Shown here one piece after another: positions 3,357 to 46,192 of a stretch of DNA of 47,008 nt. The notes beneath the pieces were generated by a model. It made no database searches. It was not told the origin of the DNA and worked only from the letters and a program-made list of their open reading frames with translations. The position numbers and the translations under genes were made by a program. Origin of the DNA: a virus; the UHGV virus genome UHGV-1362026. One strand, given 5' to 3'. Within the stretch, counting starts at the first letter, position 1. Every line of letters starts with the position of its first letter.

Positions 3357-3551
3357 TCATTTCTTGTCGCCACTTTTAACCAATGCCCAGACAAGTGCTG
3401 CAACCCACCCAATAAAACTCCATCCGACAAGAATATTCAGCACACAGATTGCTGTCGTGTTTGTGTGCTTTCTTTGCAAAGCCACAAATGATGGAAGAAG
3501 ATAAGCAAATATCACCAATCCGGCGAAAAACAACAAAATAACAACATCCAT
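3357..3551 (-). CDS. small two-TM membrane protein, superinfection-immunity (Imm)-like
   Basis: 64 aa, two hydrophobic helices, LVGWSFIGWVAALVWAL motif recalling the Imm_superinfect family; GAGGTGA RBS; own TTGACA-17-TAGATT promoter. Confidence 0.5.
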   Translation of the reverse strand: MDVVILLFFAGLVIFAYLLPSFVALQRKHTNTTAICVLNILVGWSFIGWVAALVWALVKSGDKK

Positions 3552-3586
3552 AACTCACCTCATTAATATCTCGTTTCGATGACTTG

Positions 3587-3635
3587 AATCTACATCACCA
3601 CTTCGCAGGTGTCAACACCACTGAGATGATATAAT
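3587..3635. promoter_or_regulatory. divergent promoter module, copy 2
   Basis: Minus strand: TTGACA (rc 3610-3615), 17 nt, TAGATT (rc 3587-3592), driving the Imm-like gene. Plus strand: extended -10 TGaTATAAT (3627-3635) before the chaperone/TMP genes. Shares AATCTACA(T)CACCAC, TGTCAACACC and GATATAATCA blocks with copy 1. Confidence 0.55.
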
Positions 3636-3663
3636 CAACATCAGTCAAATTCAGGATGCAAAC

Positions 3664-4371
3664 ATGAGCAGTCGCACGCCACTAACAGAAATCGGAGAGA
3701 TGCGCATCTCTCTTTCCGACAGGAGTTTTTTCTTTAAGCCATCATTCCGCGCAATGAATGAAATCGGCACACCAAAAGAAATCGTCGAGGTGTATGCCAG
3801 ACTCAATGGCATTGATTATGTTGCGCCGTTGCAGCACGTCGAATGCCTGCCATTTGGCGCGCAGATGCAGGTTATGAAAACCATCAGCAAACCTGTTTAT
3901 GGTCGCCACGTACTGAGCGCAGCCTATATCGTCATGCAGTCATGCTGTGAGGATGATATTTCTGTGCTGATTGGCGGATGGAAGCCAACACCGCGTGGTG
4001 TGCGATACGTACCTGGCATTATGCCAGTGAGCGACATTATTATTATTGCTCGCAATCTGATGCAGCACGGCATCATTGGCAAGTCGCCACTCAAAGTACC
4101 TGAGCGTCTGGAAGAGCAAGGCAAGAAAACCACAAACGAATTTCATGCGTCGCAATACATCATCTCAGCACGCACGCACTTCGATATGACGCGCGATGAG
4201 GCAGAAAACCTGTCCATGACAGAGTTTCAGATGATGATTAAGAATAAATATCCAGAGCCGAAAGGGTTAACGAAAGAAGAGCGCGCGGCAGAGTACGATC
4301 AGGCTAAAGCAGACCGTGAGCGCATGAAGGCACTGGCTGAACGCAAAGCGAAAAAAGCGAGGAATACATAA
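3664..4371 (+). CDS. putative tail assembly chaperone (between major tail protein and tape measure)
   Basis: 235-aa ORF immediately upstream of the TMP with a TAATG overlap; position equivalent to lambda G/GT; no convincing -1 slippery extension found. Confidence 0.5.
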   Translation: MSSRTPLTEIGEMRISLSDRSFFFKPSFRAMNEIGTPKEIVEVYARLNGIDYVAPLQHVECLPFGAQMQVMKTISKPVYGRHVLSAAYIVMQSCCEDDISVLIGGWKPTPRGVRYVPGIMPVSDIIIIARNLMQHGIIGKSPLKVPERLEEQGKKTTNEFHASQYIISARTHFDMTRDEAENLSMTEFQMMIKNKYPEPKGLTKEERAAEYDQAKADRERMKALAERKAKKARNT

Positions 4372-6710
4372 TGGCTGAAGAAGTCGGCGGAATTGTCTAT
4401 GAAGTTGGGATGGATGTTAAAGGCCTGAAAGCTGGCGCGACAACAGCCGGTAAGACTTTAGATGACCTTGAATCATCACTAAACAAGACTACCGGAGAAC
4501 TCAACAAGCTGGACAAAGGCGCGCGCAACGCTGGCAGCGGAATGAAGAATGCTGGCGGCGCAGCTTCAGGGCTTAAAACCAGCATGTCGATGTTGGCTGG
4601 CGCAATATCCGTATCACTGATTATCGAATGGGGAAAGCGATTCCTTGAGGTTGCTGATAACATGACGCAGCTTCAGGCAAGGATTGCCCGCCTGTCAACT
4701 GACGCGAAAACCGCGAATGAAACATTCAGTTCACTGGCAAATATCGCCTCAACCACTGGCGCAAGCCTGAGTGATACCACGAGGCTATGGGAAACATTGA
4801 CGTCATCACTGAAAGAGGCTGGCGCGACAAATGCGCAGGTTCTTAACCTTACCGATACCCTGCAAAAAATAGGTCGAATTGGCGGATCATCAACCGAAGA
4901 AATGGCGAATGCATTACGTCAGTTCGGTCAGTCAATAGCATCTGGCACAATCCGCGCAGAAGAGTTCAACTCCATCCTTGAGCAGATGCCTGAACTTGCA
5001 CGCCAGATAGCCGCTGGTCTCGGTATTTCAATGGGTGAACTTCGCGCCAGAATGCTTGACGGAAAACTGACGGCAGAAGATGCACTGAATGCCATTCAGG
5101 ACAGGACAAGTGTGGTCAATGCTGAGTTTGCAAAACTACCGCGCTCTATATCTCAGGCGACTGGTAGTCTTGAAACATCATTTGCAAAAATGATAGCAAG
5201 CATAAACGAAGCAACCGGAGCCAGTTCCACTTTTGTTTCTGTTATTGATTCCATCACTTCAGCAATAAACAGACTTACTGGTCAATCTGTAAGTGCGGCA
5301 GAGGTTATTTCTGATTTGACGTCAACTGCAGAAATGTTCAGTCGCAGGGCGAGAACTTGGTCATGGGTTGGCGTTGACGGATGGGCGGCACAAAATCAGG
5401 CGATAGCGGCGGTAGCAAATCAGGCTGCAACTTTGGTCTCAGATATGGATGCCGTAACGAAGTCAACAGGAGAAGCAGCAGAAGCTCAGGCTCATTTGAC
5501 AGTGCCGCAAACACCACCAAAAGACGGGAAAGGAAAGGGCAAAAGCGCGGAAGAACGGCAAGCTGAGTCAGTAGCTGAAAAGCTGGAGAAATTACGCCAG
5601 CAAACCATGCTCAATGCCACATCTACCAGTGAACTATCCCGCGAACAGGCAATTCTCAACGCGCAGCAATCGCTTGGCAAAGCTGCCACTCAGGAGCAAA
5701 TAAAACTGGCTGGCGAGTACGCTGCGAAGATTTGGGACCAGAAGAATGCACTGAAGGAACAGGCGGCTGCGGAGAAAGAAAAGCAGCGCATAGAACAATC
5801 ATATCAGGGATTGCGCGCCATTGCGTCGCCAACATCTGGCATTGATAGTGAATACCAGCAACGCATGGCTGACCTTGACGCCTACGCCGCAGCATATCCG
5901 CAGAAAATTACGGAGATTGAGCAGACTCGCGCAGCAATTGAAGCGCAATACCGACAGCAGCGACTTGAAGCAATGTGGCAGGAGTGGAGTCAGCAAAGCG
6001 CAGCCACACAAGCGGCGGCGGCGGCGTTTGATGCTTTCGGGCAGACCGCTGGAAATGCGCTTACTGGTATCCTTACTGGCTCAATGTCTGTATCAGAGGC
6101 TCTGCGATCAATTGGCTCAAACATCCTGTCCAGTGTTATCAATGCGTTTGTGCAAATGGGTATAGACTGGGCCAAATCAGCTATCATGGGTGCAGCAGGA
6201 ATGACAGCAGCATCAGGCATGGCAGCGGCTCAGGCGCAAATTATTGCAGCGGCTATGGCACCAGCAGCGGCAATGACCTCACTTGCTACGGCTGGGGGCA
6301 ACGCACTGCCAGCACAGACTGGCATTGCTTCAACCGTTGGTCTTGCAAAGACACTATCCATTGCTGGCGCGCTGAAAAATGGCGGACCAGCTCAGGAAGG
6401 CTCAATGTACAGGGTGGGCGAGAATAACCTCCCTGAGATATTCCAGGCGTCAAACGGTCATCAGTACATGATACCGGGAGACAGCGGGCGCGTAATTAGC
6501 AACAAAGACCTGACAGGCGGCAGTAGTGGCGTTGTGGTTTATAATAGCGTTTACAATAATTCAAGTAATGCTAGCGCAACAAGCAGAGCCACTGATAACG
6601 GTGATGGCTCGATAACTATTGAGACATTTATATCCGATATGAATGAAGGAGGCCCAATGAGTCAATCTATCTCAAGGAACTTTAATACCAACAGGAGAGC
6701 AACCGAATAA
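4371..6710 (+). CDS. tail tape measure protein
   Basis: 779 aa, Ala/Gly/Gln-rich and helical, N-terminal region like lambda-family TMPs (...EEFNSILEQMPELARQIAAGLGIS...), C-terminal glycine-rich tract; largest gene of the tail operon. Confidence 0.85.
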   Translation: MAEEVGGIVYEVGMDVKGLKAGATTAGKTLDDLESSLNKTTGELNKLDKGARNAGSGMKNAGGAASGLKTSMSMLAGAISVSLIIEWGKRFLEVADNMTQLQARIARLSTDAKTANETFSSLANIASTTGASLSDTTRLWETLTSSLKEAGATNAQVLNLTDTLQKIGRIGGSSTEEMANALRQFGQSIASGTIRAEEFNSILEQMPELARQIAAGLGISMGELRARMLDGKLTAEDALNAIQDRTSVVNAEFAKLPRSISQATGSLETSFAKMIASINEATGASSTFVSVIDSITSAINRLTGQSVSAAEVISDLTSTAEMFSRRARTWSWVGVDGWAAQNQAIAAVANQAATLVSDMDAVTKSTGEAAEAQAHLTVPQTPPKDGKGKGKSAEERQAESVAEKLEKLRQQTMLNATSTSELSREQAILNAQQSLGKAATQEQIKLAGEYAAKIWDQKNALKEQAAAEKEKQRIEQSYQGLRAIASPTSGIDSEYQQRMADLDAYAAAYPQKITEIEQTRAAIEAQYRQQRLEAMWQEWSQQSAATQAAAAAFDAFGQTAGNALTGILTGSMSVSEALRSIGSNILSSVINAFVQMGIDWAKSAIMGAAGMTAASGMAAAQAQIIAAAMAPAAAMTSLATAGGNALPAQTGIASTVGLAKTLSIAGALKNGGPAQEGSMYRVGENNLPEIFQASNGHQYMIPGDSGRVISNKDLTGGSSGVVVYNSVYNNSSNASATSRATDNGDGSITIETFISDMNEGGPMSQSISRNFNTNRRATE

Positions 6711-16217: not shown

Positions 16218-18126
16218 TATTCTCTCCTGTAAAATCTTTTCTGTGGATGATGTCTCGGCCTTTATCATTAATGCGATGCGTGATGCGTTTTGGCGCTTTA
16301 ATCAATCCCGCATACATCATGAATTGTTTGGCGTTCTGGCATTTCAGGATTTTCCCTGCCATTGACTTATCATCAAGGTGAGGGAAGATAGCCTTTGCCT
16401 TGAACATGTTTTTCATGTGAGTTGCTCCGCCATAAGGGTAGAAAACTTCGTTAGCCCACCCCTCCTTGCCATCACAACGATTAATCCAGTAGCGATACAA
16501 AATACCTTCTCCGTCCTTCGTTAACTGAACCTTGAAATCCATAACATCAGCCCATTCGTTGTCGGTATACGCACGCTCATTCAATGCCGCATTCGGGTCG
16601 CGCAAAACGTGATCGCAATGTCGGCAATAGCGAGCTGTCGGGTCGTTTTTAGTACCACATCCATCATCAAAAATACGGATGCCATGCTTATCGAAACCAC
16701 AACGGATATAACTGAAAAACTCTTCGCAACGACCATCTGGCGACAATGCATCTTTGCCAATACAGCGGCGCGCATATGGGCTGTTCATTGTTCCGCATTT
16801 AGGACACGGAACTTGTTCACCACTTCGTTTTGAACGTTGCGCTTCAGCTTCTTCCAGAATTGGGTCTTCATATAGCTGACCAAGCTCAAACATCGTGCCT
16901 GAGAAATCAAGAACCAGATGGTCTTCTTTATGATACCCGGCGTCAATTTGCTCTTTCTTTAGCAGGCGCATTCCGCGACCAAGCAACTGAACAAGAAGAG
17001 TGAGTGACATTATTTTTCGCAATATGCAGCTCGTATCCCATAACGGTATATTTACGCCAGTGGTAAGGGCGGCTATCTGGAATGTGAATTTTTTGCGCCC
17101 GGTGTATGCATCTTTTAGAGCTTTCCTTCTGGCTTTTGACCCCATATCTTCTGTGACTATTGAATAACTTCCTTCAGGCAAATATTTTGCCGCCTCCTGA
17201 CAATGCTTCTTACCAGCACATGTAATTAGCACTCCGTTCCTGTTTTTAGTCAATTCCATAACCTTAAGCATGATTTTCTGCGTCAACGTACCTTGCTCAA
17301 GAATTTCTTTCTGCATCTGCTTGAGCTGCTCGGCGGTAAAGTCCTGAGTACCATCAACATCTGAACCATGAAAATCTGAAAGGTCATAATGCAGACTATC
17401 AACATCATGAAGACCAAAAATTGTTGGCACAAGAAAACCGTTTTCAACCATGTACTTGGTGTCTATGTTGATAATCTCTTTCTTCCAGAAAGCTCCTTTT
17501 ATTGATGTAGTTCCGCGAAACGGTGAGCCTGTATAACCTATTATTCTCAACTCATGGCCGTGCTTATCTTTGCACCTTTTCATTAGCTCATTAATTATCA
17601 CTGCATACTGCGTATCACCATCATTAACAACATCAATGTCATTAACCATATGATTTTCATCGATCAGCAGGAATCTTGGGTAAAAGTCAGAAAGCGCACC
17701 TTTTGCAATAACATTCCCTGACTCATCCTTTTTATCAAACAAAGCATTTACAACAGTACCCTCAGAACCACAGATTATTGGGTACGTAGAACTTTTCCTA
17801 CCCAACGAAGCACTGAATAGCGAGTTTCTAACACCAAGCGACCATAGTTCTTCCGCATCTTGCTCCACTATTTCGCCCTGTCTTGATAAAATCATCCCTG
17901 AATAGCCCATTTCCTGAAAACGCTTTGCTATCATGGCAATCATCAGTGACTTTCCGCTACCGACGCTTGCTGTTACATAACTCGGGCCAACATAATGACG
18001 AATCACCTCACCAGTTAACTTATATATCAACCACTGGTAGGGTCTTGGCTCGATATCACCAGTATCCAGGCAGGATTTCAGCAAGTTAATGTCAATCTTT
18101 GAAATCATTTTGTCTATTTTATGCAT
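16192..18126 (-). CDS. SF2 (DExH) DNA helicase with C-terminal zinc-ribbon
   Basis: 644 aa; Walker A VGSGKSLMIA, DExH box LIDENH, C-terminal CPKCG...CRHCDH. Confidence 0.8.
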   Translation of the reverse strand: MHKIDKMISKIDINLLKSCLDTGDIEPRPYQWLIYKLTGEVIRHYVGPSYVTASVGSGKSLMIAMIAKRFQEMGYSGMILSRQGEIVEQDAEELWSLGVRNSLFSASLGRKSSTYPIICGSEGTVVNALFDKKDESGNVIAKGALSDFYPRFLLIDENHMVNDIDVVNDGDTQYAVIINELMKRCKDKHGHELRIIGYTGSPFRGTTSIKGAFWKKEIINIDTKYMVENGFLVPTIFGLHDVDSLHYDLSDFHGSDVDGTQDFTAEQLKQMQKEILEQGTLTQKIMLKVMELTKNRNGVLITCAGKKHCQEAAKYLPEGSYSIVTEDMGSKARRKALKDAYTGRKKFTFQIAALTTGVNIPLWDTSCILRKIMSLTLLVQLLGRGMRLLKKEQIDAGYHKEDHLVLDFSGTMFELGQLYEDPILEEAEAQRSKRSGEQVPCPKCGTMNSPYARRCIGKDALSPDGRCEEFFSYIRCGFDKHGIRIFDDGCGTKNDPTARYCRHCDHVLRDPNAALNERAYTDNEWADVMDFKVQLTKDGEGILYRYWINRCDGKEGWANEVFYPYGGATHMKNMFKAKAIFPHLDDKSMAGKILKCQNAKQFMMYAGLIKAPKRITHRINDKGRDIIHRKDFTGENNEKAIQAA

Positions 18127-18716
18127 TATTTTACCCTACCAAATTCACCATTAAGAACTGATGATGCTTTTGCATACGCTTTATGTGCATCTTCAGGTGT
18201 ATTAAAATAACCAATAACTTTCTTCTTGCCTCTAACCCAAATCTGAGCAACCCATTTCTTCTCCCTTGAGAACCAGCTAACACCTTTATATCCGCTAGTG
18301 TTATTTGATGACAAACCTTTATTCCATTTGTTTTGACTGCAATCAGCCAGCCTGAGGTTTTCTATCCTGTTATCGTTCTTAATAGTATTAATATGATCTA
18401 TATCCATAAGTCCAGGGTCTTGCTGTTTGCATATAGCCCACACAATTCTATGTGCTTTATAATAAACGCCATCAATCATCACTAGCCTGTAATTCATCTT
18501 ATCAACCTTGTTATCAGCAGGCTTGCCCAGATACCGTGCATTCCATGTTTTGTGATGTGGTGTTAATTCCTCTCTCTTTTTCCAATATAGGCGTCCATTG
18601 ATGACCTCTAACCTTGATGTCACGTAATCAACATCAATCTTTAGCACCTTTCTTTTTTTCTCTAAAACTTTTGAGTCGGCATCCTGAGCAACAGAACTCA
18701 GCTCTTGCTGTTCCAT
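18126..18716 (-). CDS. HNH homing endonuclease with AP2 domain (second copy)
   Basis: IDHINTIKNDNRIENLRLADCSQN and SGYKGVSWFSREKKWVAQI...IGYF; TAATG overlap with the helicase start. Confidence 0.8.
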   Translation of the reverse strand: MEQQELSSVAQDADSKVLEKKRKVLKIDVDYVTSRLEVINGRLYWKKREELTPHHKTWNARYLGKPADNKVDKMNYRLVMIDGVYYKAHRIVWAICKQQDPGLMDIDHINTIKNDNRIENLRLADCSQNKWNKGLSSNNTSGYKGVSWFSREKKWVAQIWVRGKKKVIGYFNTPEDAHKAYAKASSVLNGEFGRVK

Positions 18717-43088: not shown

Positions 43089-43122
43089 AAAGAAAAGCCC
43101 CGTAAAGGGGCTTTGGTTTACT
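43089..43122. terminator. bidirectional rho-independent terminator
   Basis: aaagaaaaGCCCCgtaaaGGGGCtttggtttact. Confidence 0.8.
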
Positions 43123-43399
43123 GTCTGGAAATTAGCTTTTCACGCAGTAAAGATATTGCGTTATGCATGACTTGAACATGATAAAGTTCGCGGTCTTCAT
43201 ATGCCAGCTTGCTGCTACCAACCGATGTTGTTACAGATGTTATTATCTTACCCCTCATTATATCAATTAATTCAAGTAACTCCCTTTCATCTCCGGAGCG
43301 AAGAATAATACTTACCAACTTTTCGTATTCATTATTATGTTCATCGACGCCGCTTTGCTTAACTCCGCAAAGCCTGCATGGCTTCATCTCTGCACTCAT
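43118..43399 (-). CDS. hypothetical protein (CxxC-containing)
   Basis: 93 aa, last gene of the leftward accessory operon; ATGA overlap. Confidence 0.5.
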   Translation of the reverse strand: MSAEMKPCRLCGVKQSGVDEHNNEYEKLVSIILRSGDERELLELIDIMRGKIITSVTTSVGSSKLAYEDRELYHVQVMHNAISLLREKLISRQ

Positions 43400-43938
43400 T
43401 AATCAATCCTCATCGGCATAACAACAATTTTCGCAGTCTCACCAGTTGGCGAACTAAGGCAGCAAACTGCGGCATTTGTGTTTCCATTCAGCTCAAACTT
43501 AACGCCACAGAATTTAGGATTAAACAGCTTCGCAGCTTTCTCGATATCAACCAGATAGCCAGCATTGAAGCCAATTTCCTCTGCTGCTTTCGTTTCTTTT
43601 GGTATCACGCGGTCAATGTCAGGGAATCGACCATCAATCTCTTCGCAGATACCAGCGCCAACCATCACGCCAGCTTCATCATGATACGTTGCAATTTTCG
43701 TTTTGGTATCAATAATGGCGTAGTCATAGCGTTTTGTTTGAGATTTGCCAATCTTGATAATCACATTTTCTGTCAGCTTATTGTCATGGCTGCCGCCAAT
43801 AAATGCGCGATGACCGTCAGTTGATGCAATGCGACCATCAGGCATAAAGCAGATGCCATTCAGGTAGTAGCGCACATCATTGCGCGCCTGAAATATTAAT
43901 GCTGATTCAAGTAATAATTTGCTGATTTTTAGTTTCAT
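43399..43938 (-). CDS. truncated beta sliding-clamp (DnaN)-like protein (~180 aa)
   Basis: NDVRYYLNG...TDGHR matches E. coli DnaN 'DVRYYLNGMLFETEGEELRTVATDGHR'; IDGRFPDIDRVIPK vs VDGRFPDYRRVLPK; EIGFNAGYLVDI vs EIGFNVSYVLDV; C-terminal KIVVMPMRID vs AAYVVMPMRL; ATG 43938 with a TGATG overlap. Confidence 0.6.
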   Translation of the reverse strand: MKLKISKLLLESALIFQARNDVRYYLNGICFMPDGRIASTDGHRAFIGGSHDNKLTENVIIKIGKSQTKRYDYAIIDTKTKIATYHDEAGVMVGAGICEEIDGRFPDIDRVIPKETKAAEEIGFNAGYLVDIEKAAKLFNPKFCGVKFELNGNTNAAVCCLSSPTGETAKIVVMPMRID

Positions 43939-44111
43939 CACTTCACCTTAATCATGTGCTGTTTTGCAACCTTCAGGCATTCTTCAAAAATGCCACCCTT
44001 CTTTGCGCTCTGATTGCGCTTGTAATACTGAATTGCCGCATCAATTGCCATCTGGTCGATTTCAGGCAGCTTGGTTCGAAGTTGTTTTTCGATGAATTGT
44101 TCGGCGTTCAT
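43938..44111 (-). CDS. hypothetical small protein (57 aa)
   Basis: TGATG overlaps at both ends; below the track cutoff. Confidence 0.4.
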   Translation of the reverse strand: MNAEQFIEKQLRTKLPEIDQMAIDAAIQYYKRNQSAKKGGIFEECLKVAKQHMIKVK

Positions 44112-44920
44112 CACATCTTCTCCAGAATTGCCATAACCTCGTGAATGTCAGCGACAGGAATCTGGATAAATTCCTCATCCTCTGCCACCACATGACCAGC
44201 AGGGAGAATCACATGGTCTGCTGGCTTCAATAACTCAATCAGGCGGTCTACTGGCTTAATCTTTTTCGACTTCAGCACTTTGGCTGTGACCTTGTCTTTG
44301 CCTTGTGCTTTAGCTTCTTCAACTGCCTCGTCGATAACTTTAACCGCGTCATCGCCATGCTCACGAGTTACTGCTACGGCATTTGCATAGCTTATTTGCC
44401 CGGCGCTGATTCGCGCTTTTACTTCCGCTGGCACATCACCCAGCGACAGGTGCATCTGCACGTCAGATACTGAACGCCCTACCTTCCTGGCGATTTCTTC
44501 ATTCGTCCAGCCAAAACCTTTCAGTCGCGTGTAAGCCTTTGCACGCTCAAACGGGTCAAGCTGCTTACCCTGGCTGGATGACACCATGAAGGCGATTTTA
44601 TCTGCTTCGTCTCCTGTAAAATCCTTACACTCAATGCGAACGATTGGTGCGCCACGCTCAATGGCACGCAATGCGCCGAGATAGCGATGCTGACCATCAA
44701 GAATGCGCATTCCCTTCTCGTCTGGAATAACTGTTAATGCTGGCAATGGCTGACCTGATTCCCAGCACTGTGCGAAATACTCCACATGCTGCTCATCTGC
44801 CTCACGGATGTTGTATCCCGGCTCCAGATAGATTTGCTCAACTGGCACGAGATAGGTTTTGTTAACAGCGATTCCGTTGCGCGTTTCTTTGTCTGAATAG
44901 ATTTTGCTGAGTGTTTTCAT
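44111..44920 (-). CDS. ParB-like nuclease domain protein
   Basis: ILDGQHRY... motif (ParB/Srx fold, DGxHR) in the N-terminal half; 269 aa. Confidence 0.7.
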   Translation of the reverse strand: MKTLSKIYSDKETRNGIAVNKTYLVPVEQIYLEPGYNIREADEQHVEYFAQCWESGQPLPALTVIPDEKGMRILDGQHRYLGALRAIERGAPIVRIECKDFTGDEADKIAFMVSSSQGKQLDPFERAKAYTRLKGFGWTNEEIARKVGRSVSDVQMHLSLGDVPAEVKARISAGQISYANAVAVTREHGDDAVKVIDEAVEEAKAQGKDKVTAKVLKSKKIKPVDRLIELLKPADHVILPAGHVVAEDEEFIQIPVADIHEVMAILEKM

Positions 44921-45297
44921 TGTTTCTTTCCTAATGCTTTCTTGATTGCTTTGTTTGCCAGATTTAATGGGTGGTCATCATGGCAATCATCCGACGATAC
45001 TGCGCAAACATCCTCAACGTAATCGCGAAGCTGGCGAAGTGCTTCGAGCAATTCTGGCGCTGCGGCTACTAACTTTGCATTCGACAAATGCTCAATGCGT
45101 GATACATCCCTATGAGCGCCTTCATCGCTCCAGTGTTCAAACCCAGCCTTCTCCCAGCCAGGGATAATTGCTATAGAATTAATCACCCTAATGATCACAA
45201 ATCCATTATCATCAACTACATCAGTATAAACTTCATGGCGCTTAACGCACTTCCACTCACCTTTCGTACCCTTGAATTCATCTTTCATATCATTCAC
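44917..45297 (-). CDS. Ead/Ea22-like C-terminal domain protein
   Basis: ...NAKLVAAAPELLEALRQL... motif typical of the Ea22-like family. Confidence 0.4.
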   Translation of the reverse strand: MNDMKDEFKGTKGEWKCVKRHEVYTDVVDDNGFVIIRVINSIAIIPGWEKAGFEHWSDEGAHRDVSRIEHLSNAKLVAAAPELLEALRQLRDYVEDVCAVSSDDCHDDHPLNLANKAIKKALGKKQ

Positions 45298-45481
45298 CGC
45301 TTTCCTCTAATAAAAGTTCATAGTTTGCAATGTACGCATTAGCCAGATAATATATTTGCTCTGCGGCACAACGCTCTGGCACGCTGAAGTCATCAATAGA
45401 ACCAGCATTGCTGAGTGCATCAACACAATTTCTGAAATCAGCCATAGTATTGCGGAACATACAGTATGACATGTTTGCCAT
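45290..45481 (-). CDS. hypothetical small protein
   Basis: 63-aa ORF in an operon. Confidence 0.45.
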   Translation of the reverse strand: MANMSYCMFRNTMADFRNCVDALSNAGSIDDFSVPERCAAEQIYYLANAYIANYELLLEESGE

Positions 45482-45483
45482 AA

Positions 45484-46107
45484 TTACTCCTCATCACCAG
45501 AATTAGCAATATCGTAAAACTGACCGTAGGTTATCTGCTTAAAGTTATCAGGTATCTCTACCTGCCCGTGACCTTCATCTTTTGTATTTGGTACAGCAAA
45601 AATCAGGAAATCATCCCTTTGCGGGTGTTTGCCGCCATAAGTAGACAGCATTGCAAAACCAAATCCGCGACCAGATCGCTCACCAATGCCTGTGCGCGCA
45701 ATTCCATAATGATTAACGATGTAGTCTTTCCATTCTGGCAATAACTTTAATTTCTCGTTTGCCTCGCGCATCACTGCGTCCAGCTTTTTGTTGTATTCGC
45801 GACCATCCTTTGTGTTTCCTTTCCCGCGAGCCACAATTACACGCTGACCTCCCCAGAACTCTTCGCGCTTTATTGTCACTTGGCACGGAAATTCAAACTG
45901 ATTACTCCACACAAAACTCTCAAGCAGGCCTCCGCCAACAGCACCCCAACTGCGCGTTGTGGTAAATGCGATAGCGCCAACCTTTTTCATTGCATCACCG
46001 AGAATTTCATTGCGGCGCTTTTGGATGTCATCATATGCGTCAATAACTTTCTTAACATCAGCACCTTCAACCATGTAATAATCATAATGTTTTGCGTTAC
46101 TGCTCAT
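45484..46107 (-). CDS. hypothetical protein (first gene of the leftward accessory operon)
   Basis: 207 aa; GAGGTG RBS; downstream of a TTGACG-17-TATAGT promoter. Confidence 0.55.
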   Translation of the reverse strand: MSSNAKHYDYYMVEGADVKKVIDAYDDIQKRRNEILGDAMKKVGAIAFTTTRSWGAVGGGLLESFVWSNQFEFPCQVTIKREEFWGGQRVIVARGKGNTKDGREYNKKLDAVMREANEKLKLLPEWKDYIVNHYGIARTGIGERSGRGFGFAMLSTYGGKHPQRDDFLIFAVPNTKDEGHGQVEIPDNFKQITYGQFYDIANSGDEE

Positions 46108-46146
46108 TTCATCACCTCTAACATTTATTGTTGTTTCTACGTCATT

Positions 46147-46192
46147 ACTATAAACACCCTCTCAATCTACGTCAACAGGAATATGCTAAAAT
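46147..46192. promoter_or_regulatory. divergent promoter pair with two copies of the TCTACGTCA element
   Basis: Minus strand: TTGACG (rc 46170-46175), 17 nt, TATAGT (rc 46147-46152) driving gene 45484-46107. Plus strand: extended -10 TGcTAAAAT (46184-46192) before the ATG at 46223. Confidence 0.55.

What the first reader, a model, noticed from the sequence alone, without database searches (positions are those of the whole stretch)
43399..43938. Truncated beta sliding-clamp (DnaN) homolog in an accessory operon
The 180-aa protein shares the DnaN domain-II block DVRYYLNG...TDGHR and the domain-II/III linker DGRFPD..RV.PK. It also shares the EIGFN.SY..D block of domain III and the extreme C-terminus VVMPMR(L/I). 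About half of domain II and most of domain III are deleted. The arrangement is reminiscent of E. coli beta* but shorter. The phage encodes helicase, primase, SSB and recombination proteins but no DNA polymerase. A mini-clamp or clamp mimic could recruit, or interfere with, host Pol III, delta or other clamp-binding proteins. It is co-transcribed with a ParB-like nuclease and an Ea22-like gene.
Basis: partly seen in the sequence, partly recalled or inferred. Interest (0 to 1): 0.85.

Follow-up and report, generated by a model that had tools for sequence, protein, structure and literature searches.

The report
Half-size phage copy of the β sliding clamp
This phage gene encodes a half-size relative of the bacterial DNA sliding clamp that keeps the pocket where polymerases and repair proteins dock but has lost the parts needed to form the usual ring; it belongs to a large, unstudied phage family and is dispensable for laboratory growth in a close relative.

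The parts
43399..43938 (-). CDS of the short DnaN-like protein. 179 aa from ATG 43938; the ORF listing gives an alternative GTG at 43941 = 180 aa, and residue numbers in this report use the 180-aa numbering.
43636..43941 (-). Residues 1-102: equivalent of DnaN domain II (E. coli ~129-237). Holds strand 1, helix 8-17, DVRYYLNG (22-29), TDGHR (41-45) and eight strands. The second helix of the domain is replaced by loop 65-73.
   Evidence: 62.8 bits to DnaN 123-250
43582..43635 (-). Residues 103-120: domain II/III linker DGRFPDIDRVIPK (E. coli 238-250), carrying pocket residues P107 (P242), R111 (R246) and V112 (V247).
43402..43581 (-). Residues 121-180: a single beta-alpha-beta-beta-beta unit equivalent to the C-terminal half of DnaN domain III (E. 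coli ~313-366), carrying N126 (N320), Y129 (Y323) and VVMPMR 173-178 (360-365).
   Evidence: (24.5 bits to 305-366 vs 6.7 bits to 245-312)
43938..44114 (-). 58-aa ORF (phrog_4439, unknown function), translationally coupled to the DnaN-like gene. Conserved next to it in 47 of 48 Skatevirus-type loci. Deleted early in seszw genome reduction.
44111..44920 (-). ParB/KorB-like DNA-binding protein (269 aa). Conserved partner in Skatevirus-type loci (47/48) and adjacent to the homologue in Serratia phage Eta. Retained in the nine genome-reduced seszw mutants that lack the DnaN-like gene.
44917..46107 (-). Variable upstream cargo of the operon: 126-aa (phrog_1273), 63-aa (phrog_8760) and 207-aa (phrog_2260, 'EaC' in relatives) ORFs. 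None has a Pfam or PADLOC hit.
46147..46175 (-). Sigma-70-like promoter TTGACG-17-TATAGT (10 of 12 matches) upstream of the first gene of the minus-strand operon.
   Evidence: consensus match only; the number of sites in the region is not above shuffles
43094..43114 (.). Bidirectional intrinsic-terminator hairpin (8 bp stem, 5 GC pairs) that closes both the minus-strand operon and the convergent plus-strand head genes.
43118..43399 (-). 93-aa ORF downstream of the DnaN-like gene, last gene before the terminator. No family hit; present in only 1 of 48 related loci.

Best explanation
The gene encodes a stand-alone, non-ring derivative of the beta sliding clamp. It consists of the elements that build the clamp's peptide-binding cleft: domain II, the II-III linker, and the C-terminal half of domain III including the C-terminal tail. 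It lacks domain I and the half of domain III that carries the dimer interface, so it cannot form the canonical head-to-tail beta2 ring.

It is expressed with early or replication genes. Here that is a 7-gene minus-strand operon with a sigma-70-like promoter; in lambdoid relatives it is the cII-O-P operon.

Most likely it acts as a soluble receptor for clamp-binding motifs (QL[SD]LF / QLxLxL type) of host proteins such as Pol III alpha/epsilon/delta, Hda, Pol II/IV/V and MutS/MutL. By competing with host beta it would re-route or damp clamp-dependent host transactions in favour of phage DNA replication. It is an accessory function, not an essential one.

Shown: homology, architecture, pocket conservation, family size, genomic contexts, and dispensability in a close relative. 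Inferred: that the pocket binds clamp-binding motifs, that the ligands are host proteins, and that the effect is competition rather than recruitment.

For: Architecture: domain II 62.8 bits, C-terminal half of domain III 24.5 bits, N-terminal half 6.7 bits, domain I none; only two long helices.

Pocket: the residue list comes from PMC11139829. 16 of 18 residues are identical in this protein. 10 of the 15 most conserved columns in 131 representatives (one per 50%-identity cluster) are pocket residues against 1.5 expected (hypergeometric P=1.5e-8; Mann-Whitney P=5e-7). These include surface polar residues (R152, H175, N320 and R365 equivalents) that serve ligand binding in beta.

Family: 284 phage records; 2,111 cluster representatives at E<=1e-3, almost all 170-215 aa and end-to-end; BFVD models of 178-215 aa at TM 0.8-0.87.

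Not a host fragment: no blastn hit in 5,426 E. coli genomes.

Context: CI | cII - X - O-position gene - DnaB-like helicase or lambda P in 30 lambdoid loci; SSB - ParB-like - X - helicase in Serratia phage Eta; sigma-70-like promoter here.

Ligands likely host proteins: no canonical clamp-binding motif in real phage proteins here or next to homologues elsewhere.

Accessory: nine seszw mutants of 36.5-40.5 kb lack the gene yet were isolated as plaques.
Against: There is no binding evidence of any kind. Pocket residues also hold domains II and III together, so part of their conservation could be structural. L177 is Ala and V344 is Thr here, and the R176, V360 and M364 equivalents are poorly conserved in the family. 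A pure decoy for Pol III alpha or delta would be self-harming in phages that depend on host Pol III (this window; lambdoid loci), which argues for selective targets or for a recruiting role. The family is neutral to basic (median pI 7.9 vs 5.25 for E. coli beta) with conserved Lys/Arg on both helices, which fits DNA binding better than a purely soluble decoy. Expression timing is unknown; promoter scans in EP23 and Sciku were inconclusive.
Confidence: 0.5

Rival explanations
1. Loader-independent tether or adaptor, working like herpesvirus UL42. The protein binds DNA directly through a basic face formed by its two helices and holds host Pol III or another clamp-binding protein through the retained pocket. 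This would bring host replisome components to phage replication intermediates without needing the clamp loader.
Against: DNA binding is not shown. The gene also occurs in phages with their own PolA, which carry no clamp-binding motif. It is dispensable in seszw. No second, phage-specific interface has been identified.
Confidence: 0.2
2. A true sliding clamp with a new subunit arithmetic. Orphan half-domains of two protomers pair across a twofold axis to rebuild a full domain III, and four protomers (4 x 1.5 domains) close a six-domain ring around DNA.
For: A clamp domain is two beta-alpha-beta-beta-beta halves related by a pseudo-twofold axis (established fold knowledge). The protein has exactly one such half left. 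Its first strand (121-125) forms only isolated bridges in the monomer model. Basic residues are conserved on the helices. A size series of about 370, 250 and 180 aa exists among phage beta-like proteins.
Against: No multimer model could be made. Domain II has lost its second channel-lining helix, so a ring would have 8 rather than 12 helices. A D2 ring would put pockets on both faces, which is incompatible with the known geometry of clamp-loader contact. The phage encodes no clamp loader. The gene is dispensable.
Confidence: 0.12
3. A clamp-fold scaffold whose pocket conservation is purely structural. The real function would use other surfaces, for example partnership with the adjacent ParB/KorB-like protein.
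For: ParB-like and DnaN-like genes are adjacent in 47 of 48 Skatevirus-type loci and in Eta. Pocket residues lie at the domain II/III junction, where they also have a packing role.
Against: The ParB-like partner is absent from lambdoid, EP23, Sciku and Shewanella contexts, while the pocket stays conserved across all of them. seszw mutants keep ParB-like but lose the DnaN-like gene. Exposed polar pocket residues (R24, H44, N126, R178) are conserved without an obvious packing reason.
Confidence: 0.1
4. The database labels are right. Either it is a RusA-like Holliday junction resolvase (RefSeq, phrog_3007 label), or it is simply 'the DNA polymerase III beta subunit', a functional beta2 clamp.
For: Labels in RefSeq and GenBank records and the PHROG description.
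Against: A Pfam scan at E<=10 returns only DnaN domains and no RusA, and the fold is a beta clamp. As a DnaN it fails TIGR00663 (33 vs 137.65 bits). It lacks domain I and half of domain III.
Confidence: 0.02

Closest known systems
Bacterial beta sliding clamp DnaN (E. coli P0A988; PDB 2POL, 1MMI; TIGR00663; PF00712 + PF02767 + PF02768)
   Different: Half the length. It has no domain I, no N-terminal half of domain III (I272/L273 interface helix, E298-E304 strand) and no second helix in domain II. It therefore cannot form the head-to-tail dimeric ring. It is neutral to basic instead of acidic, phage-encoded and dispensable.
E. coli beta* (UV-inducible product of an internal start in dnaN; Paz-Elizur/Skaliter/Livneh, J Biol Chem 1996; cited from my own knowledge, the papers are not in the held library)
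   Same: A shorter clamp form lacking domain I that retains the polymerase-binding region.
   Different: beta* keeps complete domains II and III (about 26 kDa) and was proposed to assemble into a PCNA-like ring of six full domains. The phage protein has 1.5 domains (about 20 kDa), is a separate old gene family, and is only about 30% identical to host DnaN.
Herpesvirus processivity factors UL42 (monomer) and UL44 / PF-8 (C-shaped dimers)
   Different: They have two complete domains, no sequence relationship to DnaN and an essential role with a cognate viral polymerase. Here no cognate polymerase is encoded and the gene is dispensable.
Phage proteins that target or replace Pol III holoenzyme parts: Twort Gp168 (beta-clamp inhibitor, PDB 7EVP, seen) and P1 Hot (theta homologue that can substitute for host theta; cited in PMC7556043)
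   Same: Phage-encoded accessory proteins that interface with the host Pol III holoenzyme. Hot is a precedent for a phage carrying a homologue of a holoenzyme subunit.
   Different: Gp168 is an unrelated small protein that binds beta. Hot is a full-length homologue. The present protein is a truncated homologue of the hub itself, presenting the hub's binding site.
phrog_3007 (PHROGs v4) and the GenBank-annotated 'DNA polymerase III beta subunit' of Skatevirus, Dhillonvirus, Kagunavirus, Serratia phage Eta and others
   Same: Direct family membership (E=8e-64 over the whole profile; 284 phage records).
   Different: Nothing structural. The family's PHROG/RefSeq name ('RusA-like Holliday junction resolvase') is wrong, and the alternative name overstates it as a complete beta subunit.

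Membership tests
Bacterial beta sliding clamp DnaN (TIGR00663; PF00712/PF02767/PF02768) | Three tandem clamp domains (N-terminal, central, C-terminal) of about 120 aa each | tested here: not met
   180 aa. There is no match to domain I, and only the C-terminal half of domain III is present. No PF00712 hit even at E<=10. The model has 1.5 domains.
Bacterial beta sliding clamp DnaN (TIGR00663; PF00712/PF02767/PF02768) | Scores above the curated family thresholds | tested here: not met
   TIGR00663 33 bits vs cutoff 137.65. PF02767 16.2 bits and PF02768 15.1 bits vs cutoff 27.
Bacterial beta sliding clamp DnaN (TIGR00663; PF00712/PF02767/PF02768) | Head-to-tail dimer interface (I78, F106 of domain I with I272, L273 of domain III; PMC11139829) | tested here: not met
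   Domain I is absent. The retained half-domain matches residues 305-366, not 245-312 where I272/L273 lie. This particular protein has a local resemblance to 270-285, but it is not conserved at family level.
Bacterial beta sliding clamp DnaN (TIGR00663; PF00712/PF02767/PF02768) | Clamp-binding-motif pocket (subsites I and II, 18 residues) | tested here: met
   16 of 18 residues are identical, and the family's top conserved columns are enriched for pocket residues (P=1.5e-8). This is sequence-level only; pocket geometry could not be measured because model coordinates are not exposed.
Bacterial beta sliding clamp DnaN (TIGR00663; PF00712/PF02767/PF02768) | Clamp (DNA-clamp) fold | tested here: met
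Bacterial beta sliding clamp DnaN (TIGR00663; PF00712/PF02767/PF02768) | Closed ring around DNA, loaded by a clamp loader, conferring processivity | not testable with these tools
There are no biochemical data in the literature searched.
phrog_3007 (short phage DnaN-like family) | Full-length match to the family profile | tested here: met
   E=8.4e-64, residues 2-179 on profile positions 1-186 of 190. End-to-end homologues of 170-215 aa.
RusA Holliday junction resolvase (PF05866), the label attached to phrog_3007 and RefSeq records | RusA fold or profile match | tested here: not met
   No RusA hit in Pfam at E<=10. The fold is a beta clamp.
E. coli beta*-type shortened clamp | Complete domains II and III, derived from dnaN itself | tested here: not met
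   Half of domain III and helix 2 of domain II are missing. There is no nucleotide similarity to E. coli genomes.
Anti-phage defence or known counter-defence components (PADLOC-DB) | Match to any PADLOC model | tested here: not met
   No hit for this protein or for the six other operon proteins at E<=0.01.

The most novel reading that the evidence does not exclude
The 1.5-domain protomer is the subunit of a fourth kind of sliding clamp. Orphan half-domains of two protomers would pair on a true twofold axis to rebuild domain III, and four protomers would close a six-domain, D2-symmetric ring carrying four polymerase-binding pockets, two on each face. Such a ring might self-assemble on phage DNA without the host clamp loader.
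Probability: 0.1. Interest if true: 0.9.

Novelty: new variant of a known kind. Interest (0 to 1): 0.55.

Why it matters
The beta clamp is the hub of bacterial replication and repair, and its peptide pocket is an antibiotic target. This is a widespread, naturally minimised version that evolution has trimmed to roughly the pocket-forming elements and kept under selection in many phage lineages. If it binds clamp-binding motifs, it would be a new class of phage tool for hijacking or jamming the host replisome. It would also be a ready-made soluble 20-kDa pocket module for screening clamp inhibitors. If instead it assembles into a ring, it would extend the known clamp architectures (dimer of 3 domains, trimer of 2 domains). 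On the practical side, hundreds of RefSeq/PHROG records call this protein a RusA-like resolvase, which should be corrected. The gene is removable in a relative, so deletion and complementation experiments are straightforward.

Tried and rejected
1. Recent capture of host dnaN: rejected. No blastn hit in 5,426 E. coli genomes, about 30% protein identity, and a large diverged family.

2. RusA-like resolvase label: rejected.

3. 'Needed because the phage lacks a polymerase': rejected as a general rule, because EP23 and Sciku have PolA plus this gene.

4. Essential replication factor: rejected for the close relative seszw. Genes 16 and 17 are deleted in nine viable mutants.

5. Phage-encoded partner with a clamp-binding motif: none found in real ORFs of this window, nor in EP23, Sciku, Eta or lambdoid neighbours. 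The motif carries little information, so this is weak negative evidence.

6. Defence or counter-defence match: no PADLOC hit.

8. afdb50 fold search: the library was unavailable.

10. The search for related loci with the 104-sequence alignment failed for lack of a conserved stretch. It was solved with a sub-alignment.

11. Promoter scans upstream of the lone EP23 and Sciku genes: nothing above chance.

12. Supplementary tables of the seszw paper are not held. This was replaced by direct comparison of the deposited mutant genomes.

13. Context look-ups for the most divergent members returned only short contigs.

14. Literature searches for a functional study of the short family found none.

Full report
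WHAT IS THERE. The window is a nearly complete genome of a Skatevirus-type siphovirus. It is 87-92% identical at the nucleotide level to Salmonella, Escherichia and Klebsiella phages such as Skate, seszw, Sf11 and IME207. A minus-strand ORF lies at 43399..43941. Its likeliest start is ATG 43938. That ATG overlaps the stop codon of the upstream 58-aa ORF as TGATG and has AAGGTG five bases upstream (sequence), and homologues are 178-179 aa. Residue numbers below use the 180-aa translation from the GTG at 43941.

ARCHITECTURE. The model has strand 3-7 and helix 8-17, then three strands, then four more strands with no helix between them. The linker is 103-120. After it come helix 127-140 and three strands. 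Against pieces of E. coli DnaN, the family profile scores 62.8 bits on domain II, 24.5 bits on residues 305-366, 6.7 bits on residues 245-312, and nothing on domain I. The protein is therefore domain II with its second helix reduced to a 9-residue loop, plus the linker, plus only the C-terminal beta-alpha-beta-beta-beta half of domain III. According to the review PMC11139829, the beta dimer interface is made by I78 and F106 of domain I and I272 and L273 of domain III. Both parts are absent here, so the canonical head-to-tail ring cannot form.

WHAT WAS KEPT IS THE DOCKING POCKET. The same review lists the 18 residues of the pocket that binds clamp-binding motifs. Subsite I is R152, L155, T172, G174, H175, R176, L177, P242, R246, V247, V360 and M362. 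Subsite II is H175, N320, Y323, V344, M362, P363, M364 and R365. In this protein 16 of the 18 are identical; L177 is Ala46 and V344 is Thr155. I then looked at 131 family representatives, one per 50%-identity cluster. Ten of the fifteen most conserved columns are pocket residues, against 1.5 expected (hypergeometric P=1.5e-8). Pocket columns average 0.73 top-residue frequency against 0.36 for the rest (Mann-Whitney P=5e-7). Several of these residues are exposed polar side chains in beta (R152, H175, N320, R365), and their known role there is ligand contact. This is the main evidence for function, and it is inferential. Model coordinates are not exposed, so pocket geometry was not measured, and some of the conservation could simply reflect packing of the two domains.

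GENOMIC CONTEXT. In the window the gene is sixth of seven tightly packed or overlapping minus-strand genes. A sigma-70-like promoter (46175-46147, 10 of 12 matches) precedes them and a bidirectional terminator hairpin (43094-43114) follows. The unit is inserted between head and neck/tail genes that run the other way. Across 48 Skatevirus-type loci the conserved core is ParB/KorB-like gene, 58-aa ORF and DnaN-like gene, present in 47 of 48. The 'EaC'-type 207-aa gene and the other small ORFs are variable cargo, and the 93-aa ORF downstream occurs in only one other locus. I found no support for an 'Ea22-like' assignment.

Elsewhere the context changes in an informative way. In 30 lambdoid loci (45-65% identity) the order is N antiterminator and CI repressor, then divergently cII, the DnaN-like gene, a ~300-aa gene in the O position, and a DnaB-like helicase or lambda P. 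In Serratia phage Eta the order is SSB, ParB-like, DnaN-like, helicase, with a divergent primase. In EP23, Sciku, Shewanella phage 1/41 and one metagenomic contig the gene is a lone gene antiparallel to structural genes. Where neighbours are informative, they are early or replication genes.

TWO FACTS THAT CONSTRAIN THE MECHANISM. First, the window encodes SSB, Erf, a PDDEXK nuclease, VRR-NUC, an SNF2-type helicase, a primase and a DUF3987 protein, but no polymerase. All other large ORFs are structural or packaging genes. However, EP23 and Sciku carry both this gene and a family-A polymerase, so the gene is not a substitute for a missing polymerase accessory.

Second, the CRISPR genome-reduction study of Skatevirus seszw (PMC9825161) deposited its mutant genomes. 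seszw gene 16 is about 93% identical at the protein level to the window protein. At >=99% nucleotide identity the coat gene is found in 72 records, gene 16 in 47, and the small upstream gene 17 in 15. Nine mutants of 36.5-40.5 kb lack about 670 nt covering genes 16 and 17 while keeping the ParB-like gene. This was confirmed on clone 290L. The protein is therefore dispensable for plaque growth on the laboratory host, at least in that relative.

MECHANISM. My best-supported reading (about 0.5) is a non-ring, soluble clamp-binding-motif receptor made early. It would bind the QL[SD]LF-type motifs of host replisome or repair proteins and compete with host beta. No real phage protein carries a canonical motif, either here or next to homologues elsewhere, so the ligands are more likely host proteins.

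Whether the outcome is sequestration or recruitment is unresolved. A blunt decoy for Pol III would hurt phages that depend on Pol III. The family's basic shift (median pI 7.9 against 5.25) and its conserved lysines on both helices fit a DNA-bound tether of the herpesvirus UL42 kind, which is the first rival (0.2).

The orphan half-domain invites a more radical reading. Because a clamp domain is two halves related by a pseudo-twofold axis, two protomers could rebuild domain III and four could close a six-domain ring (0.1-0.12).

VERDICT. The object is a new architectural variant of a known kind: a 1.5-domain beta-clamp derivative that keeps the binding pocket. It is widespread, mislabelled and functionally unstudied. 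It is of moderate to good interest and experimentally tractable, because the gene can be deleted and the predicted ligands are well-defined peptides.

Noticed in passing
window 43399-43938 (-) and RefSeq relatives (e.g. NC_054639 Skate gp41, NC_021563 Eta_0010): The PHROG phrog_3007 description and many RefSeq records call this protein a 'RusA-like Holliday junction resolvase'. No RusA signal exists and the fold is a beta clamp, so this is a propagated misannotation affecting hundreds of records.
   Followed up: yes
window 43094-46175; L002 (EP23) 6007-6519; L005 (Sciku) 3357-3878; L008 (Shewanella 1/41) 5004-5552; L174 4977-5525: In five unrelated siphovirus contexts the gene lies antiparallel to, and embedded in or abutting, the head/tail gene cluster. 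In Sciku it sits between the portal and head-morphogenesis genes, with its own bidirectional terminator. Why an early-type gene repeatedly sits head-on inside late operons is unexplained.
   Followed up: partly
window 43118-43399 (-): A 93-aa ORF between the DnaN-like gene and the terminator has no Pfam, PHROG or PADLOC hit and is present in only 1 of 48 related loci. It looks like lineage-specific cargo.
   Followed up: partly
L001 (vB_SenS_ST1UNAM) 17787-18584, compared with window 44111-44120: Close relatives (ST1UNAM, HC6, ZCEC08) carry a C-5 cytosine methylase between the small ORF and the ParB-like gene. This window lacks it and has different small ORFs upstream of ParB, so the operon is a hotspot for cargo exchange.
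   Followed up: no
L172 (Serratia phage Eta) 2870-6856; window 44111-44920: A ParB/KorB-like gene is the immediate upstream neighbour of the DnaN-like gene in Skatevirus-type phages and in Eta, where the pair sits between SSB and a helicase. It is absent from lambdoid and lone-gene contexts. ParB-family proteins are themselves CTP-dependent DNA clamps (my own knowledge), so a functional pairing may be worth testing.
   Followed up: partly
BFVD hits (G9FGZ4 REQ2 266 aa; A0A385DZJ4 Horus 238 aa; A0A0A0RQG5 Seurat 246 aa): Phage beta-like proteins come in at least three size classes: about 370 aa (three domains), about 240-270 aa, and about 180 aa. This suggests repeated or stepwise trimming of the clamp in phages.
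   Followed up: no
window 18126-18716 (-): An HNH endonuclease with an AP2 DNA-binding domain sits between the SNF2-type helicase and the divergent primase gene. It is probably a homing endonuclease inserted in the replication module.
   Followed up: no
L009/L010/L011 (seszw mutants MZ375320, MZ375321, MZ375351): In the seszw reduction series the 58-66-aa ORF upstream of the DnaN-like gene is lost first (present in 15 of 72 records) and the DnaN-like gene later (47 of 72). The ParB-like gene is kept in the nine mutants listed that lack the DnaN-like gene. This suggests graded fitness contributions within the trio.
   Followed up: partly
window residues 136-150 of the protein (nt about 43492-43536): This particular protein, though not the family consensus, has a stretch AAKLFNPKFCGVKFEL that resembles DnaN 270-285 (AAILSNEKFRGVRLYV), the end of the dimer-interface helix and the following loop in the N-terminal half of domain III. 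Yet the unit as a whole is homologous to the C-terminal half. It could be pseudo-symmetry, convergence or a chimeric deletion junction; this is unresolved.
   Followed up: partly
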